DNA from: Corallococcus sp. EGB
Lineage (GTDB): Bacteria; Myxococcota; Myxococcia; Myxococcales; Myxococcaceae
NCBI RefSeq assembly: GCF_019968905.1
Contig: NZ_CP079946.1
Span: 5,921,356 to 5,985,355 of the forward strand
Direction: 5' to 3'
Length of the DNA: 64,000 nt
In this document: one piece after another, positions 921 through 5,416 of the stretch
How positions within the stretch are numbered: position 1 is the first letter of the stretch
Layout: each line of letters starts with the position of its first letter
Translations under genes and position numbers: made by a program
The notes under the pieces: model-generated
Databases searched by the model: none
Told to the model about the DNA's origin: nothing
What the model saw: only the letters and a program-made list of their open reading frames with translations

Positions 921-2468
921 TCAGGGAGGAGGCGGCGCGGGGATGGACCGGGCTGAGGTGGGCTCGCCCAGGATCAACAGCAGCTCCGCGCGGCGGTTCT
1001 CTCCCCGACCGGCCCGCGTTCCGTTAGAGCCCGCCGGCCGGCGCGCACCGAGTCCTCGCGCCTCCAGCCGCTCGGCGGGGACACCCTTTCGCACGAGGTA
1101 GTCACGCACCGCTTCCGCGCGGGCCAGGGACAGGCGCTGGTTGGAGGCGGACGAGCCCTCCACGTCGGTGTGCCCTTCAATGACGACGCGCGCCACTTCC
1201 GGATGCTCGAGCAGCACCCGCGCCACCTGATCCAGGACACGCGAGCGGCCCGGCAGGGTGGTCGCGCCGACCTCGAAGAAGACCTGACCATGGAGGACGA
1301 GCCGCTCGCGTGTCAGTGAGACGAGCGGGTCAGCGGACTCGGGGCAGCCACCATGCTCTCGGGTTCCCTGCTCGTGGATGCAGGCATCCAGTGTGTCCAC
1401 GACGCCGTCCCCATCCGTATCGGTCTCGCTCCAGGCCTCCTCCGCAGACGGCTCGGGCCTGGAGGGTTCGGAAGGTGTGGGCTCAGGTTCGAGCTGGGGT
1501 TCAACAGGGGCGCGTGGCAGCCCCTGGACCAGCTCGTAGACGATGTCCTCGGGGGGAGGAGGCGGCGGTTTGTCGAAGAGCAGCGCCAGTCCCGCGAGCA
1601 CCCGGAAGCGCGGCGTCCCCGGCTCCGAGCCCAGGCCCGCGCCGCCCATGGCGAAGAACTCCCAGGGCCGGACGGGTGCGTAGCGCAGGCCGCCCAGGAG
1701 CTCGCCACTGACGCGCTGCTGTCGCCAGGAATACGCGCCGAGCGCGGACACCTCCGCGCGGAAGGCATAGCCCACGGTCAATCCCGCACCCGCGCGAAGC
1801 TCGTTGCCCACGCCGTTGATGCGCTCCACGGAGGAGTCGGACACCGCGCGACGCAGGAGTACGCCCAGCTCCAGCGCCGGAGCCACCGCCCCCCAACGCT
1901 TGCCCATCATGATCCGCCCCTGGCCGCGGATACCCCGGTCGCGAGCGAGCGCGCCAGAACCACCGACGGGGAGCCGCGCGTCCAGGTCGAGCGCCAGATG
2001 GAAGGCTTCGGGAGCGGAGGTCCCGAGCAGACCCAGCCGGGCCGCGAGCCTCGGCGCGCCCAGTCCGCTGCGTGACGGCGAGGCAATGGACAGCGAGGTG
2101 CTCAGGTCCGCGCCACTCTGATGGATGACACCCGGAAGCTGGGCCTGAAGCTCCAGCCAGGGCAACACACCGACAGCCAACGACACCAGTCCTGTGGTCC
2201 GGGACAGGACCAGCGAGGGCTCCAGCAGTCCGTTCGGGATCCGCAGGGAGGAGTGCTGGTAGTGCGCCATCAAGGAGATGCGCAGGTCCCCGGGCGCCAG
2301 CAGCTCCCCGTTCCCCATCGTCAAGGGACCCAGGCCCGGGTTCGGGTCCAATCGCTCCAGCGAGAACGTGGGCAAGGGCGTGGCGTCCTGGGCACGCGCG
2401 GGGGTGGCAAGTAGCAGCAGCCCCAGCGCGGCTCCGCCCACTGCGCATCGGTGCAAGGCCGGACCCAT
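921..2468 (-). CDS. OmpA-family outer-membrane protein (N-terminal beta-barrel-like region, thrombospondin-type-3 Asp-rich motif, C-terminal OmpA peptidoglycan-binding domain)
   Basis: The 540-aa ORF has an internal start MGPALHRCAVGGAALGLLLLATPARA (signal peptide) with GGAAG 8 nt upstream. The C-terminus TDTDGDGVVDTLDAC...VFFEVGATTL...VVIEGHTDVEGSSASNQRLSLARAEAVRDYL is a classic OmpA_C domain. Confidence 0.85.
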   Translation of the reverse strand: MGPALHRCAVGGAALGLLLLATPARAQDATPLPTFSLERLDPNPGLGPLTMGNGELLAPGDLRISLMAHYQHSSLRIPNGLLEPSLVLSRTTGLVSLAVGVLPWLELQAQLPGVIHQSGADLSTSLSIASPSRSGLGAPRLAARLGLLGTSAPEAFHLALDLDARLPVGGSGALARDRGIRGQGRIMMGKRWGAVAPALELGVLLRRAVSDSSVERINGVGNELRAGAGLTVGYAFRAEVSALGAYSWRQQRVSGELLGGLRYAPVRPWEFFAMGGAGLGSEPGTPRFRVLAGLALLFDKPPPPPPEDIVYELVQGLPRAPVEPQLEPEPTPSEPSRPEPSAEEAWSETDTDGDGVVDTLDACIHEQGTREHGGCPESADPLVSLTRERLVLHGQVFFEVGATTLPGRSRVLDQVARVLLEHPEVARVVIEGHTDVEGSSASNQRLSLARAEAVRDYLVRKGVPAERLEARGLGARRPAGSNGTRAGRGENRRAELLLILGEPTSARSIPAPPPP

Positions 2469-2560
2469 GCGCGCATCTTCCGTCAGGTCCCGTCCGGGGC
2501 GAAGGGGAATGGCGGCTAGACTCGCTCCGCGACGCCCCTGCATCGCCTGGAGACACGCTC

Positions 2561-2875
2561 ATGCAAAAGCAGCTGTCAAAGAGGTCATGTTCCCTGATGG
2601 TTGGCGCGTTGCTGTTCACCGCCTGCGGTCCCGACGCCGCCCAGGAGGTATCGCCAACGGATCAGGCCTCGGCGTCGAGTCGCCCGGTGCGCGCCATGGC
2701 TCCGCCGAACAGCTGTGATGAAAGCGTGGATGTCGGCTGGTGTCGCGTCTACAGCGACCGTGTGCCCTGCAATAACGGCATCGAGATGTATGCCATCTGG
2801 ACGCCGGATGGCTGGTGCATCCAGCGCGACGTCTGCAAGTACAGCCAGGGCCCCGAACTCATCTGCCCTCAGTAA
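2561..2875 (+). CDS. small Cys-rich lipoprotein (paralog A, 104 aa)
   Basis: Signal peptide plus lipobox LLFTAC. The mature part has 6 Cys: ...AMAPPNSCDESVDVGWCRVYSDRVPCNNGIEMYAIWTPDGWCIQRDVCKYSQGPELICPQ. Confidence 0.65.
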   Translation: MQKQLSKRSCSLMVGALLFTACGPDAAQEVSPTDQASASSRPVRAMAPPNSCDESVDVGWCRVYSDRVPCNNGIEMYAIWTPDGWCIQRDVCKYSQGPELICPQ

Positions 2876-2937
2876 CCCCGACCCGGAATTCCAGGCTAGA
2901 CTGTACCCGCGGTCCCCATCCCGTCGCGGAGACAGCC

Positions 2938-3240
2938 ATGCAATGGAAGACATTAGCGAAGTCAGTGGGCCGGGCGTTCGGTTCCGCCCTGCTGCTTGTC
3001 GCTTGCGGACCTGAAGCAGCGCAGGAGACTCAGGCCTCGCAGTCAGACAGCCGGGTGCACGCCATGGCACCACCAACCAGCTGTGACCCGGACATCGACA
3101 TCGGTTGGTGCCGGGTTCCCACCGGAAGTGTCCGCTGCGCCGACGGCTTCAACATGTATGCCTATTCGACGCCAGACGGTTGGTGTATCCGCTACGACGC
3201 TTGCAAGAGTCACGGCGGCCCCTACGTCTGCGGTCTGTAA
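2938..3240 (+). CDS. small Cys-rich lipoprotein (paralog B, 100 aa)
   Basis: The ATG at 2938 has a GGAGA RBS. Lipobox LLLVAC. The sequence AMAPPTSCDPDIDIGWCRVPTGSVRCADGFNMYAYSTPDGWCIRYDACKSHGGPYVCGL aligns residue-by-residue with paralog A, including all 6 Cys. Confidence 0.65.
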   Translation: MQWKTLAKSVGRAFGSALLLVACGPEAAQETQASQSDSRVHAMAPPTSCDPDIDIGWCRVPTGSVRCADGFNMYAYSTPDGWCIRYDACKSHGGPYVCGL

Positions 3241-3479
3241 GCGAAGTTGCCTCACCGCCCTGCTTCGTATCGGCAGGGCGGTCCAACCATCCAAGTGCTC
3301 CCGCGAGCCGCCAGCTGACTGAAGACACCTCAGCACATTCGCGAGAGCCCCCTGCCAGGCTCGAAGGAAGCGCCCTCGTTCCACTCCGATCCGGCCTCGT
3401 CCCGTCTGGCAACCCGCAGCACCAACGACGCTCACCTGAGCAGGCCGGACTTCCTGGAAGCACGTCAAACACCCTCACC

Positions 3480-3956
3480 TCACTCCTTGGCCCCCAGGGA
3501 CTCGCGTAGGGAATGGATAAAGCTGGAGAAGTCAGGGGCAAGGATGAGGACGCTCCTGTCCTCGTCCACGTAGACGACACGCGGCTCACCGTGTGGGCCA
3601 CATTCGCTGTAGTCGAGCATCACGGTGTCGTGCCCTGCAGAAGGCGTGTGGCAGATCACCAGTCCAATGTCCGGGTATCCCCATTCCTGGACCATGTACG
3701 CACTGCCCAGTTCGCCATCGAGGCCATCCTCAAAGCCAATTCCCAGCAGGGTCGAGATCTCGATGTGATCGGGCGCCCAGGATGTCGGTGCGGTCGTACG
3801 AATGCAGCGTCGGACAGGAACGCCGCCATTGCGCTCACGCAGGATGGCCACGTACGCCGGAGGCAGGCGACGTTGAAGCGTTGCCTCCGCGCGAGCCACC
3901 ATCGCGTCGGTGAGTGGCGGTCCCGACCCAACTGGCTCGGCGATGAAGAAACCCAT
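3480..3956 (-). CDS. SMI1/KNR4 (SUKH-1) family protein, the immunity-protein-type fold of polymorphic toxin systems
   Basis: MGFFIAEPVGSGPPLTDAMVARAEATLQRRLPPAYVAILRERNGG... is the typical SMI1/KNR4 N-terminal signature. CCAGGAGGTG RBS 7 nt upstream of the ATG at 3956. An alternative upstream start at 3992 is possible. Confidence 0.7.
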   Translation of the reverse strand: MGFFIAEPVGSGPPLTDAMVARAEATLQRRLPPAYVAILRERNGGVPVRRCIRTTAPTSWAPDHIEISTLLGIGFEDGLDGELGSAYMVQEWGYPDIGLVICHTPSAGHDTVMLDYSECGPHGEPRVVYVDEDRSVLILAPDFSSFIHSLRESLGAKE

Positions 3957-4119
3957 GAGCACCTCCTGGATGAGAGCTGAAGGCACCCGCATAGCAGTCG
4001 CCTTCTACAATGAATTTGGATGCGACCGCGCATCCATCACGAATGACATTCGGGTGTCACATCCACGTGAGGCTCTATTCCTTGGCTCGCTGAAGCGCCA
4101 GGTGCTATCCGGCGCGCGC

Positions 4120-4446
4120 ATGCGAAGCCCCCTGCTCTGCATCTCAGCCCTCGCATTGCTTGGCCCCGCGTGCGCCACCACTTTTCCCACTGTCGAGCGC
4201 AATGGCTTCCAACTCGGAGCCTCCACCTGGGGAAGCGACGAGCGAGCCATCCGTTCGCAGGCCTCATTCACCACGAGCTGCCCCTCGGAGCAGCTTGAGC
4301 TCCAGGTCCTGTCCGTGGCGGGAAACCCGAAGTCTCCCAGCGACGCACGCGGTGTCGGCGTGACGGGCTGCGGCCGGAAGACGAGCTGGGTCCGGCTCGC
4401 GAACGGCGCCTGGGTCATCAACAGCGACGGAACCAGCGCACCATAG
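4120..4446 (+). CDS. small secreted hypothetical protein (108 aa, 4 Cys)
   Basis: MRSPLLCISALALLGPACATT has a signal-peptide-like N-terminus. No recognisable domain. The codon pattern is acceptable. Confidence 0.4.
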   Translation: MRSPLLCISALALLGPACATTFPTVERNGFQLGASTWGSDERAIRSQASFTTSCPSEQLELQVLSVAGNPKSPSDARGVGVTGCGRKTSWVRLANGAWVINSDGTSAP

Positions 4447-4564
4447 CAAGCGTGGTGGGCTCCGCATCCGTAAGCCCACCCCACCGATGGCAATGGACCG
4501 CGAGAGTTCTCGCGGTCTGCCGACGCTCCATCCCGGACGCCTGCATCCGGGGCTTGGACCGCGG

Positions 4565-5416
4565 TTACTTCCCCGCGCGCTGAGCCGCCTCCAGCGTGTT
4601 CTTCATCAGCATCGCAATCGTCATCGGGCCCACGCCACCCGGCACCGGCGTGATGAACGAAGCGCGCTCCGCCGCGGCGGCGAACTCCACATCGCCGACC
4701 AGCTTCCCATCGGCCTTGCGGTTCATGCCCACGTCGATCACCACCGCGCCGGGCTTGATCCACGCGCCCTTCACCAGCTCCGGAACGCCCACCGCCACCA
4801 CCAGGATGTCCGCCTGCGCCACCTCCGACGGCAGGTCGCTCTTGCGGTGGCACACCGTCACCGTCGCGTCCTTCTGCAAGAGCATCAGCGCCTGCGGCTT
4901 GCCCACGATGTTGCTGCGGCCCACCACCACCGCGCGCTTGCCCGCCGGATTGCACCCCACCTCTTCCAACAGCCGCATCACGCCGTAGGGCGTGCACGCC
5001 CGCGTCGCCGGGCGGCCCAACAGCAGGTTGCCCGCGTTCATCGGGTGGAAGCCGTCCGCGTCCTTCTCCGGCTTCACCGCCGCGATGATGGCGTCCGCGT
5101 CGATGTGCTTGGGCAACGGCAGCTGCACCAGGATGCCGTGCACCGCCGGGTCCTCGTTCAGCCGGTGCACCAGCGCCAACAGCTCCGCCTGGGTGATGTT
5201 CTCGTCCGGGTGGTGCTCCCAGGAGTTGAAGCCCACCTCCTCGGCGGCCTTCTTCTTCCCCGTCACATAGATCTTGGACGCCGGGTCCTCCCCTACGCGC
5301 ACCACGGCGAGCCCCGGGGTGATGCCGCGCTCCGCCTTCAGGCGCGCCACCTCCTCCTTGATCTCCGCCCGTACGCGCGCCGCCACTGCCTTGCCGTCAA
5401 TCAACTGAGCCGTCAT
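4565..5416 (-). CDS. folD: bifunctional methylenetetrahydrofolate dehydrogenase / methenyl-THF cyclohydrolase
   Basis: [23 protein letters not shown]...[10 protein letters not shown]...[12 protein letters not shown]...VTVCH...[10 protein letters not shown] is a canonical FolD sequence. The ATG at 5416-5414 was confirmed in sequence. Confidence 0.93.

What the first reader, a model, noticed from the sequence alone, without database searches (positions are those of the whole stretch)
2561..3240. Tandem pair of paralogous small 6-Cys lipoproteins, an unrecognised family
Two adjacent about 100-aa lipoproteins share a colinear Cys framework after the lipobox Cys: SCD....GWCRV....C.....PDGWCI..D.CK......(I/V)C. 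That pattern implies three disulfides in a compact secreted fold. I do not recognise it as a known domain. Small disulfide-rich duplicated lipoproteins in myxobacteria are candidates for toxins or bacteriocin-like factors, receptor-binding decoys, or immunity proteins. They sit in a lower-GC patch between ompA-like and folD together with an SUKH gene
Basis: seen in the sequence. Interest (0 to 1): 0.6.

Follow-up and report, generated by a model that had tools for sequence, protein, structure and literature searches.

The report
Uncharacterised small disulfide-rich myxobacterial lipoproteins
Two neighbouring genes encode real, related 100-residue outer-membrane lipoproteins whose tiny disulfide-locked domain belongs to an undescribed protein family found only in Myxococcus-like bacteria; their function is unknown and nothing yet links them to toxins or immunity.

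Summary
Window 2561-2875 (A, 104 aa) and 2938-3240 (B, 100 aa) are paralogues (52% identity, E 4e-33). Each has a lipoprotein signal peptide, an acidic low-complexity tether of about 27 residues and a 53-residue domain with six conserved Cys.

Both are genuine genes. GC3 peaks in their frame, and dN/dS against orthologues is 0.19-0.37.

There are 4-, 6- and 8-Cys subtypes. In all nine 4-Cys members C1 and C4 are replaced together by aromatic residues, which supports a C1-C4 disulfide.

The gene sits next to folD in Corallococcus and a second Myxococcaceae lineage. Copy number varies from one to three, with decayed relics. No partner gene is conserved, and the SUKH gene is a strain-specific orphan insertion.

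Best reading: a non-enzymatic binding module tethered to the outer membrane in the periplasm, possibly a protective inhibitor or decoy. Biogenesis and topology are well supported; function is a guess. This is an ordinary lineage-specific unknown-function family with tidy anatomy, of modest interest.

The parts
2561..2875 (+). Gene A, 104-aa lipoprotein precursor (WP_223633932.1, Corallococcus sp. EGB, 'hypothetical protein')
   Evidence: ORF. 100% match to P0001. GC3 is 0.78 in frame against 0.57 and 0.53 out of frame. dN/dS is 0.26-0.28 against orthologues.
2561..2626 (+). A: type II signal peptide ending in lipobox L-F-T-A-C22
   Evidence: Sequence. PROSITE-style lipobox regex. The lipobox Cys and the following Gly are at least 90% conserved.
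2627..2710 (+). A: acidic Pro/Ala/Gln/Glu/Ser-rich tether (residues 23-50). It has no Lys at +2 and no Ala at +7.
   Evidence: AF2 pLDDT is below 50 for residues 1-43. Family linkers are 18-40 residues. The sorting rule is as quoted in PMC5562445.
2711..2872 (+). A: 54-residue six-Cys all-beta domain (C52, C61, C70, C86, C92, C102)
   Evidence: Invariant Cys. AF2 block-mean pLDDT is about 81-86 over residues 51-90 in the full-length model and 76 overall in the domain model, with five short strands. Cys pattern table.
2938..3240 (+). Gene B, 100-aa paralogous lipoprotein precursor. Lipobox L-V-A-C23. Domain residues 48-100, with C49, C58, C67, C83, C89, C98.
   Evidence: GC3 is 0.70 in frame. 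dN/dS is 0.19-0.37 against orthologues.
2514..2522 (+). GGCTAGACT, a possible -10-like promoter element 44 nt upstream of the A start codon (inferred)
   Evidence: The 9-mer occurs only twice in the 64-kb window on either strand, and both copies lie upstream of A or B. TAGACT or TACACT stands at the same distance upstream of leading copies in L001, L002, L003 and L004. The sigma-70 consensus scan does not pick it up.
2894..2902 (+). Second GGCTAGACT, 41 nt upstream of the B start codon (inferred own promoter)
   Evidence: No stable hairpin lies between A and B (z = -0.6).
3254..3282 (+). GC-rich hairpin with an 11-bp stem, 14 nt after the B stop. Probably a terminator shared with the convergent SUKH gene.
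   Evidence: RNA fold -24.1 kcal/mol, z = -2.5. It has no U-tract, so the simple terminator scan missed it.

Best explanation
A and B are precursors of small outer-membrane lipoproteins.

Shown from sequence: each has a type II signal peptide with a lipobox, then a disordered acidic tether of about 27 residues, then an acidic all-beta domain of about 53 residues with six invariant Cys.

Inferred from established lipoprotein biology:
- Sec export and lipidation at Cys22 (A) or Cys23 (B).
- Oxidation in the periplasm to three disulfides. The C1-C4 pair is supported by covariation; the other two pairings are unassigned.

Shown by comparison: the genes belong to an undescribed family whose named members are all Myxococcaceae. 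Its ancestral position is beside folD. It evolves by tandem duplication, divergence into orthogroups (A-, B- and C-type in Corallococcus) and frequent decay. Selection is purifying but not strong.

Functional commitment (inference only): the domain is too small and too featureless to be an enzyme, and it has no fixed partner gene. It most likely acts as a tethered protein-binding module in the periplasm. My preferred reading is a protective inhibitor or decoy against envelope-attacking hydrolases or toxins, either the predator's own or those of competitors. As an outer-membrane lipoprotein it would by default be shared among kin through TraAB outer-membrane exchange.
For: - Paralogy.
- Lipobox, linker, absence of Lys at +2 in every member, and acidic pI. 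The sorting rule and the transfer of outer-membrane lipoproteins by exchange are quoted from PMC5562445.
- Disordered tether and a moderately confident beta domain.
- Cys patterns among 57 distinct domain sequences: 37 six-Cys, 6 eight-Cys, 9 four-Cys, 5 broken or truncated. In all nine 4-Cys sequences C1 becomes Tyr and C4 becomes Tyr or Phe.
- Coding and constrained.
- Distribution. An exhaustive HMM scan of 1.84 billion representatives gave only 28 hits, and the six long (777-2512 aa) multi-stretch hits look spurious; the one read, P0015, is a repetitive protein.
- No known family or fold.
- folD adjacency conserved, with a single copy in JPH2 and M34.
- Copy-number variation and relics.
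- Three Corallococcus orthogroups.
- No conserved neighbour across independent contexts.
- Turnover, low GC3 and a variable neighbourhood fit a conflict-related accessory role.
Against: - Nothing tests the binding or inhibitor function directly. No target is identified, and no toxin or hydrolase gene is consistently adjacent. The only neighbouring hydrolase-like gene is one divergent gene in Pyxidicoccus with an HExxH motif and sub-threshold metallopeptidase matches.
- Vertical retention beside folD would fit a housekeeping envelope role equally well.
- The 4-Cys and 8-Cys clades are each monophyletic, so the Cys covariation reflects very few evolutionary events.
- AFDB fold libraries were unavailable, so 'no known fold' rests on PDB alone.
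Confidence: 0.4

Rival explanations
1. Housekeeping envelope lipoprotein. The domain would be a structural or regulatory adaptor, for example contacting peptidoglycan, the neighbouring OmpA-like protein or an inner-membrane enzyme through its long tether (LpoB-like logic). The tandem copies would be simple dosage or subfunction duplicates.
For: - The position beside folD is kept across Corallococcus and the JPH2/M34 lineage, which implies long vertical inheritance.
- Selection is purifying.
- A is divergently transcribed from an OmpA-family gene in five Corallococcus loci (window, L001, L002, L003, L005).
- The tether-plus-small-domain architecture fits.
Against: - The OmpA-like gene is absent from the C. 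terminator, C. praedator, JPH2 and M34 loci and from the Pyxidicoccus and Myxococcus contexts.
- The only copy at this locus in C. praedator is decayed.
- Named members come from only a few Myxococcaceae genera, and no hit was named Myxococcus xanthus.
- GC3 is well below that of core genes: 0.70-0.78 against 0.91-0.94.
Confidence: 0.25
2. Small lipoprotein toxin, bacteriocin-like factor or antifungal effector, delivered by outer-membrane exchange or on vesicles.
For: - Predicted outer-membrane lipoproteins are default cargo for outer-membrane exchange (PMC5562445).
- Duplication, divergence and decay resemble polymorphic effector loci.
- Corallococcus sp. EGB is a studied predator of fungi.
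- One metagenomic copy lies near an RHS toxin gene.
Against: - No immunity gene lies in an operon with any copy.
- No conserved neighbour at all.
- No toxin domain.
- The domains are acidic, unlike cationic membrane-active peptides.
- The proteins are about 100 aa, whereas SitA toxins carry an escort domain of about 375 aa plus a nuclease (PMC8546572).
- No hit on plasmids or phages.
Confidence: 0.1
3. Cognate immunity proteins of a local polymorphic toxin system that includes the SUKH gene.
For: A SUKH (SMI1/KNR4) gene lies 240 bp downstream. SitI1 is a SUKH protein. The patch has low GC.
Against: - SUKH is convergent, not co-oriented, and is separated from B by a strong hairpin.
- SUKH is absent from all 11 related loci checked for it.
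- No toxin ORF lies between ompA and folD.
- Family members occur in unrelated contexts without toxins.
Confidence: 0.04
4. Cys-rich metal- or redox-binding lipoprotein, with thiolate ligands rather than disulfides.
For: Six invariant Cys in 53 residues.
Against: - The location is periplasmic and oxidising.
- There are no CxxC or CxC motifs.
- C1 and C4 are replaced together by aromatic residues, and extra Cys are gained in pairs. That is the behaviour of disulfides, not of a metal site.
Confidence: 0.04
5. Spurious ORFs in a GC-rich genome.
For: High-GC DNA gives many long ORFs in all frames.
Against: E 4e-33 paralogy, dozens of homologues with conserved Cys, GC3 highest in the annotated frame and dN/dS below 0.4.
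Confidence: 0.01

Closest known systems
SitA lipoprotein toxins of myxobacteria (outer-membrane-exchange cargo)
   Same: Both are Myxococcaceae lipoproteins with a lipobox lacking the inner-membrane retention signal and a disordered stretch right after it. Both lie in variable, duplicated loci, and a SUKH gene is nearby in this window.
   Different: SitA proteins carry an escort domain of about 375 aa and a C-terminal nuclease, and are always in an operon with sitI (PMC8546572). A and B are 100-104 aa with no toxin domain and no co-oriented immunity gene, and the SUKH gene is not conserved.
Small lipoprotein or periplasmic inhibitors of lytic enzymes (MliC/PliC, PliI, PliG, Ivy) and lipoprotein immunity proteins to periplasm-acting effectors
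   Same: Similar size (about 100 aa), envelope location, non-enzymatic binder logic, and tandem or orphan arrays. The resemblance is recalled from my own knowledge and was not tested.
   Different: No sequence match to any such Pfam, NCBIfam or PADLOC model and no fold match in PDB. No target is known.
LpoB-type outer-membrane lipoproteins (long disordered tether plus a small globular domain that reaches a partner across the periplasm)
   Same: The architecture is the same: lipobox, low-complexity linker of 18-40 residues, small folded domain. The comparison rests on my own knowledge.
   Different: There is no homology. The domain is half the size and disulfide-locked. The family is lineage-restricted and dispensable in some species.
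Small disulfide-rich five-strand beta proteins such as the fungal antifungal proteins PAF and AFP
   Same: About 50-55 residues, three or four disulfides, five short beta strands. The PAF/AFP properties are from my own knowledge.

Membership tests
Bacterial lipoproteins (type II signal peptide, PROSITE PS51257 logic) | Positively charged n-region, hydrophobic h-region and a lipobox [LVI..][ASTV..][GAS]-C within the first ~35 residues | tested here: met
   A has K3, K7, R8, then SLMVGALLFTA-C22. B has K4, K8, R12, then AFGSALLLVA-C23. The regex matches 56 of 67 family sequences, and most of the rest are truncated or decayed. The lipobox Cys is at least 90% conserved.
Bacterial lipoproteins | Actual lipidation and LspA cleavage | not testable with these tools
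   Needs globomycin or palmitate labelling, or mass spectrometry.
Outer-membrane (not inner-membrane or matrix) lipoproteins of Myxococcus | No Lys at +2 and no Ala at +7 relative to the lipid-modified Cys | tested here: met
   In A and B, positions +2 to +7 read G-P-D/E-A-A-Q. No family member has Lys at +2. The rule is as stated in PMC5562445, citing Bhat 2011.
SitA outer-membrane-exchange toxins | Family-defining N-terminal escort domain of about 375 aa | tested here: not met
   The whole proteins are 100-104 aa. The escort-domain size is from PMC8546572.
SitA outer-membrane-exchange toxins | C-terminal polymorphic nuclease or toxin domain | tested here: not met
   No Pfam, NCBIfam or PADLOC domain at E up to 1.
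SitA outer-membrane-exchange toxins | Cognate sitI immunity gene immediately downstream in the same operon | tested here: not met
   The next gene (SUKH) is on the opposite strand beyond a hairpin. It is missing from the 11 related loci checked.
SUKH / SMI1-KNR4 immunity proteins | Match to the SUKH profile models | tested here: not met
   A and B have no Pfam hit. Only the separate gene at 3480-3992 matches PF09346.
Myxococcus cysteine-rich repeat and other described Cys-rich domains in Pfam or NCBIfam | Profile match above or near threshold | tested here: not met
   None of the 26 members scanned had a Cys-rich family hit at E up to 1. NCBIfam gave only sub-threshold noise.
Lysozyme or protease inhibitor lipoproteins (MliC/PliC and similar) | Sequence or fold similarity to a solved inhibitor | tested here: not met
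Lysozyme or protease inhibitor lipoproteins | Inhibitory activity against a target enzyme | not testable with these tools
   Needs biochemistry.
Disulfide-stabilised secreted mini-domain (generic class) | Cys lost or gained in pairs across homologues | tested here: met
   All nine sequences lacking C1 also lack C4. All six sequences with an extra N-terminal Cys also have an extra Cys three residues before C4. C2, C3, C5 and C6 are invariant in intact members. Caveat: each variant clade is monophyletic.

The most novel reading that the evidence does not exclude
The family is a new class of conflict factor specific to Myxococcaceae. It would be a disulfide-knotted mini-domain with a previously unseen fold, anchored in the outer membrane and passed between kin by outer-membrane exchange. 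There it would serve as shareable ('public-good') immunity, or as an inhibitor of envelope-targeting weapons used in predation or kin discrimination. Tandem paralogues would track different enemy variants.
Probability: 0.12. Interest if true: 0.65.

Novelty: new variant of a known kind. Interest (0 to 1): 0.3.

Why it matters
If the protective-binder reading were right, it would add a transferable, lipid-anchored immunity or inhibitor layer to myxobacterial predation and kin-discrimination biology. In that field only cytoplasmic SitI-type immunity, which is not transferred, is established. It would also supply a compact 53-residue disulfide scaffold of unknown fold.

As the evidence stands, the value is more modest:
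- A clean definition of an unannotated protein family, with its motif, 4/6/8-Cys subtypes, one supported disulfide, taxonomic range and locus history. It could be deposited as a domain of unknown function.
- Corrections to annotations. The A-type copy is called as a 59-aa fragment in two Corallococcus assemblies, and gene B carries no accession or name in the protein collection.

Tried and rejected
- **Library searches.** Pfam, NCBIfam, PADLOC and PHROGs scans of A, B and 26 relatives found nothing.
- **PDB by sequence profile.** Only signal-peptide noise.
- **Conserved partner gene.** An all-against-all comparison of ORFs around family members in five independent contexts found none. Ideas based on single neighbours were dropped because none recurs: the OmpA-like gene, the SUKH gene, a Pyxidicoccus gene with an HExxH motif, and an RHS toxin.
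- **Mobile-element origin.** No plasmid or phage hits.
- **RNA element.** No Rfam match in 2000-5000.
- **Sigma-70 promoter and terminator scan.** Nothing relevant.
- **Large multi-stretch hits in the exhaustive search** (P0015 and five other 1596-2512-aa proteins). I treated them as spurious because the one sequence read, P0015, is a low-complexity repeat protein.
- **Genome scan with the diverse alignment.** It failed for lack of a conserved stretch. The narrower alignment found only four more Corallococcus loci.
- **Carboxypeptidase-inhibitor-like idea.** The conserved short hydrophobic C-terminus after the last Cys-Pro suggested it. I could not test it, so I do not claim it.

Full report
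**1. The observation**

Window 2561-2875 (+) encodes a 104-aa protein, A. The ATG at 2938 opens a 100-aa protein, B, ending at 3240. BLASTP of A against B gives 52% identity over 98 residues, E 4e-33.

Both proteins begin with a Lys/Arg-bearing n-region, a hydrophobic core and a lipobox (A: LFTA-C22; B: LLVA-C23). A Pro/Ala/Gln/Glu/Ser-rich stretch follows, and then a C-terminal segment with six colinear Cys. GGAGA lies 8-12 nt before each ATG.

The GC dip is real. GC is 0.60-0.65 between about 2550 and 4350, against 0.68-0.73 outside.

The neighbours are as described:
- An OmpA-family gene on the minus strand (PF00691, 2.4e-20). Its likely true start is the Met at 2468, which begins a signal peptide.
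- A SUKH/SMI1-KNR4 gene at 3480-3992 on the minus strand (PF09346, 4e-16).
- folD at 4565-5416 on the minus strand.

Its suggested regex has one wrong spacing: C1 to C2 is C-x7-W-C.

**2. Are these real genes?**

Yes.
- GC3 is highest in the annotated frame: A 0.78 against 0.57 and 0.53; B 0.70 against 0.59 and 0.58.
- Pairwise dN/dS against orthologues in other Corallococcus genomes is 0.19-0.37. Between the two paralogues it is 0.48.
- A is identical to WP_223633932.1, a 'hypothetical protein' of Corallococcus sp. EGB, so the window comes from that strain. B is in the collection from the same 9.43-Mb contig but carries no accession or name.

**3. The family**

Word-indexed searches with A and B found only 12 clusters. 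All are from Corallococcus or unnamed read-assembly or metagenome sequences.

A profile search that read all 1.84 billion representative proteins found 28 hits at E up to 1e-3. Six of these are long proteins (777-2512 aa) matched in 4-10 short stretches. The one I read, P0015, is a low-complexity repeat protein, so I treat all six as spurious. The rest are proteins of about 60-150 aa (one 268-aa fused ORF call) with the same architecture.

A second profile search attached names. Named hits are from Pyxidicoccus caerfyrddinensis, P. xibeiensis, P. parkwayensis, Myxococcus sp. K15C18031901, 'Myxococcaceae bacterium JPH2' and Corallococcus sp. M34. All are annotated 'hypothetical protein' or 'Lipoprotein'. 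Genome and metagenome DNA scans added four Corallococcus species and five soil-metagenome loci. There are no hits on plasmids or phages.

The family is therefore small, and every named member is from Myxococcaceae.

**4. Anatomy of the family**

- 56 of 67 sequences pass a PROSITE-style lipobox rule. Most of the others are N-terminally truncated or decayed.
- Position +2 is never Lys.
- The linker is 18-40 residues long (typically 23-29) and acidic.
- The mature domain is about 50-53 residues with pI 4.1-5.7 in almost all members.

Aligned to a domain HMM, 57 distinct domain sequences fall into these classes:

| Class | Count | Feature |
|---|---|---|
| 6-Cys | 37 | the pattern seen in A and B |
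| 8-Cys | 6 | an extra Cys about 8 residues before C1 and another three residues before C4 (PD-C-RW-C) |
| 4-Cys | 9 | C1 replaced by Tyr and C4 by Tyr or Phe, always together |
| Broken or truncated | 5 | likely pseudogenes or fragments |

C2, C3, C5 and C6 are invariant in intact members, as is a Gly after C3.

Paired loss and paired gain is how disulfides behave. It supports a C1-C4 bond (A: C52-C86; B: C49-C83). There is a caveat: the 4-Cys and 8-Cys groups are each monophyletic in a rough NJ tree, so this reflects few independent events. The remaining two pairings are unassigned.

The family-wide motif is roughly C-[DN]-x(4-8)-C-x-[VIL]-x5-[VIL]-x-C-x2-G-x2-[MV]-x-[AS]-[YWF]-x(5-6)-[WY]-C-I-x2-[DN]-[VA]-C-x(5-9)-C-[PG]-x(0-3). 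The 'GW' before C2 occurs only in the Corallococcus clade.

**5. Comparison with known families and folds**

No match at E up to 1 to a described family in Pfam or NCBIfam, and none in PADLOC or PHROGs, for A, B or 26 relatives. A profile search of PDB sequences hit only signal-peptide-like regions.

AlphaFold2 gives a disordered N-terminal 43 residues and a five-strand all-beta domain. Block-mean pLDDT is about 81-86 over residues 51-90 in the full-length model. The domain-only model with a 26-sequence alignment has pLDDT 76 and pTM 0.57.

**6. Genomic context and history**

The HMM finds only these two copies in the 64-kb window.

| Locus | Organism | Arrangement |
|---|---|---|
| L001, L002 | Corallococcus (L002 is C. 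exiguus) | three tandem copies (A-, C- and B-type); L001 also has a fourth, decayed copy with four of six Cys lost |
| L003 | C. carmarthensis | C-type then A-type |
| L004 | C. terminator | two copies directly against folD, no ompA gene nearby |
| L005 | C. aberystwythensis | two copies 3 kb apart with duplicated folD fragments between; the second copy has lost its lipobox Cys |
| L006 | C. praedator | one decayed copy beside folD, amid integrase and transposase debris |

In JPH2 and M34 a single copy lies between a DUF2378 gene and folD, in the otherwise housekeeping run MTHFR, 140-aa gene, DUF2378 gene, family copy, folD, TerB/DnaJ gene, Smr gene. The site convergent with folD is therefore old, and the Corallococcus arrays are later tandem expansions at a rearrangement-prone spot.

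In Pyxidicoccus and Myxococcus sp. the genes lie elsewhere. Myxococcus sp. has three tandem 4-Cys copies.

An all-against-all comparison of ORFs across the independent contexts shows that the only shared gene is the family member itself. The SUKH gene occurs only in this window. It is convergent with B and separated from it by an 11-bp GC hairpin of -24 kcal/mol.

The NJ tree puts A and B in different orthogroups that predate the divergence of several Corallococcus species. Strain EGB lacks the C-type copy.

**7. Expression signals (inferred)**

GGCTAGACT occurs exactly twice in the 64 kb, at 2514 and 2894. These positions are 44 and 41 nt upstream of the A and B start codons. TAGACT or TACACT stands at the same distance from leading copies in L001, L002, L003 and L004. 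Copies that follow another copy by only a few bases lack it.

This looks like a -10-type element, giving each of A and B its own promoter. It is not confirmed: the sigma-70 consensus scan found nothing. There is no stable hairpin between A and B and no Rfam match.

**8. How it most likely works**

Shown: a lipoprotein signal, a tether, and a Cys-locked beta domain.

Inferred from established biology:
- Lipidation and Lol sorting to the outer membrane. In Myxococcus, Lys at +2 retains lipoproteins in the inner membrane and Ala at +7 marks matrix lipoproteins. Both are absent here (PMC5562445).
- Periplasmic oxidation of the Cys to disulfides.
- Outer-membrane lipoproteins are efficiently transferred by TraAB outer-membrane exchange, so these proteins would be default cargo.

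On function: a 53-residue acidic domain with no catalytic motif and no fixed partner gene is best read as a binding module held on a flexible leash. The duplication, divergence and decay dynamics, the sub-core GC3 and the rearranging neighbourhood lean towards a role in conflict. I therefore favour a protective inhibitor or decoy against envelope-attacking enzymes or toxins, but this is a guess. I put about 0.4 on the non-enzymatic tethered-binder picture as a whole, and less on the protective-inhibitor version specifically.

A housekeeping envelope adaptor is the main rival (0.25). Long vertical retention favours it. Weighing against it are decay in some species, the narrow set of genera among named members and the lack of a conserved OmpA partner.

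A toxin role (0.1) is weakened by the absence of any immunity gene, the acidity of the domain and its small size. SitA toxins, by contrast, have an escort domain of about 375 aa plus a nuclease and are always in an operon with sitI (PMC8546572).

A SUKH-linked immunity role (0.04) is contradicted by synteny. A metal-binding role (0.04) is contradicted by the paired Cys changes. Spurious ORFs are excluded.

**9. Novelty and verdict**

This is an undescribed, lineage-restricted protein family: a 'domain of unknown function' carried on an ordinary lipoprotein chassis. The anatomy is tidy, and the 4/6/8-Cys series is a nice internal control for disulfides. Nothing here would strongly surprise a specialist or open a long-standing question.

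Interest is 0.3. Novelty is a new variant of a known kind, namely small disulfide-rich bacterial lipoproteins.

The most novel reading still open is a shareable, exchange-transferred immunity or inhibitor factor with a new fold. I give it about 0.12 probability and 0.65 interest if true.

Noticed in passing
window 3480-3992 (-): The SUKH/SMI1-KNR4 gene (PF09346, 4e-16) has no adjacent toxin gene. It is absent from all 11 related loci checked, so it looks like a strain-specific orphan immunity gene inserted between B and the next gene.
   Followed up: partly
window 4117-4446 (+): A small secreted 4-Cys protein of about 109 aa, with signal peptide MRSPLLCISALALLGPACA, has no Pfam, PADLOC or PHROG match. 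It is conserved at 83% identity next to folD in L001 (8775-9092).
   Followed up: partly
L001 9157-9255; L005 3519-3805: Duplicated fragments of folD lie inside the variable region: the 3' end (residues 251-283) in L001 and residues 16-110 in L005. They look like scars of insertions or segmental duplications at this site.
   Followed up: no
L001 8388-8672; L006 5986-6243; L005 5354-5668: Decaying family copies. One has lost four of six Cys. One lacks a signal peptide and has C5 changed to Arg. One has its lipobox Cys changed to Gly. P0014, P0016 and P0017 are similar broken versions.
   Followed up: partly
L007 6411-6638; L008 8378-8650; L013 3617-4777; N-terminal half of P0028: Other, unrelated Cys-rich lipoproteins lie right beside family members in several genomes; three are small (75-90 aa or part of a fused ORF) and one is 386 aa. 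This hints that Myxococcaceae carry clusters of different disulfide-rich lipoproteins.
   Followed up: no
L007 4301-5848 (-): In Pyxidicoccus xibeiensis the family gene is divergent from a 515-aa protein with a hydrophobic N-terminal segment, an HELGH motif and bacterial TSP3 repeats. The metallopeptidase matches are all below Pfam thresholds. This is the only case of a hydrolase-like neighbour.
   Followed up: partly
L001 5532-5846 and L002 5242-5556: The public annotation calls the A-type copy as a 59-aa C-terminal fragment, because the divergent OmpA ORF was extended upstream over it. The full 104-aa lipoprotein ORF is intact.
   Followed up: yes
window 2938-3240 (+): Gene B (P0006) has no accession or name in the protein collection, whereas A is WP_223633932.1. 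B may be missing from the RefSeq annotation of strain EGB.
   Followed up: no
window 921-2543 (-): The OmpA-like ORF as listed starts 17 nt from gene A. The probable true start is the Met at 2468, which begins a signal peptide (MGPALHRCAVGGAALGLLLLATPARA). That leaves a divergent intergenic region of about 92 bp. The protein also has a weak TSP3-type calcium-binding repeat hit.
   Followed up: no
L006 1700-5700: In C. praedator the region upstream of the decayed copy holds integrase-like and transposase-like fragments and an EGF/FG-GAP repeat protein. Mobile-element activity appears to have remodelled the folD-proximal site.
   Followed up: no
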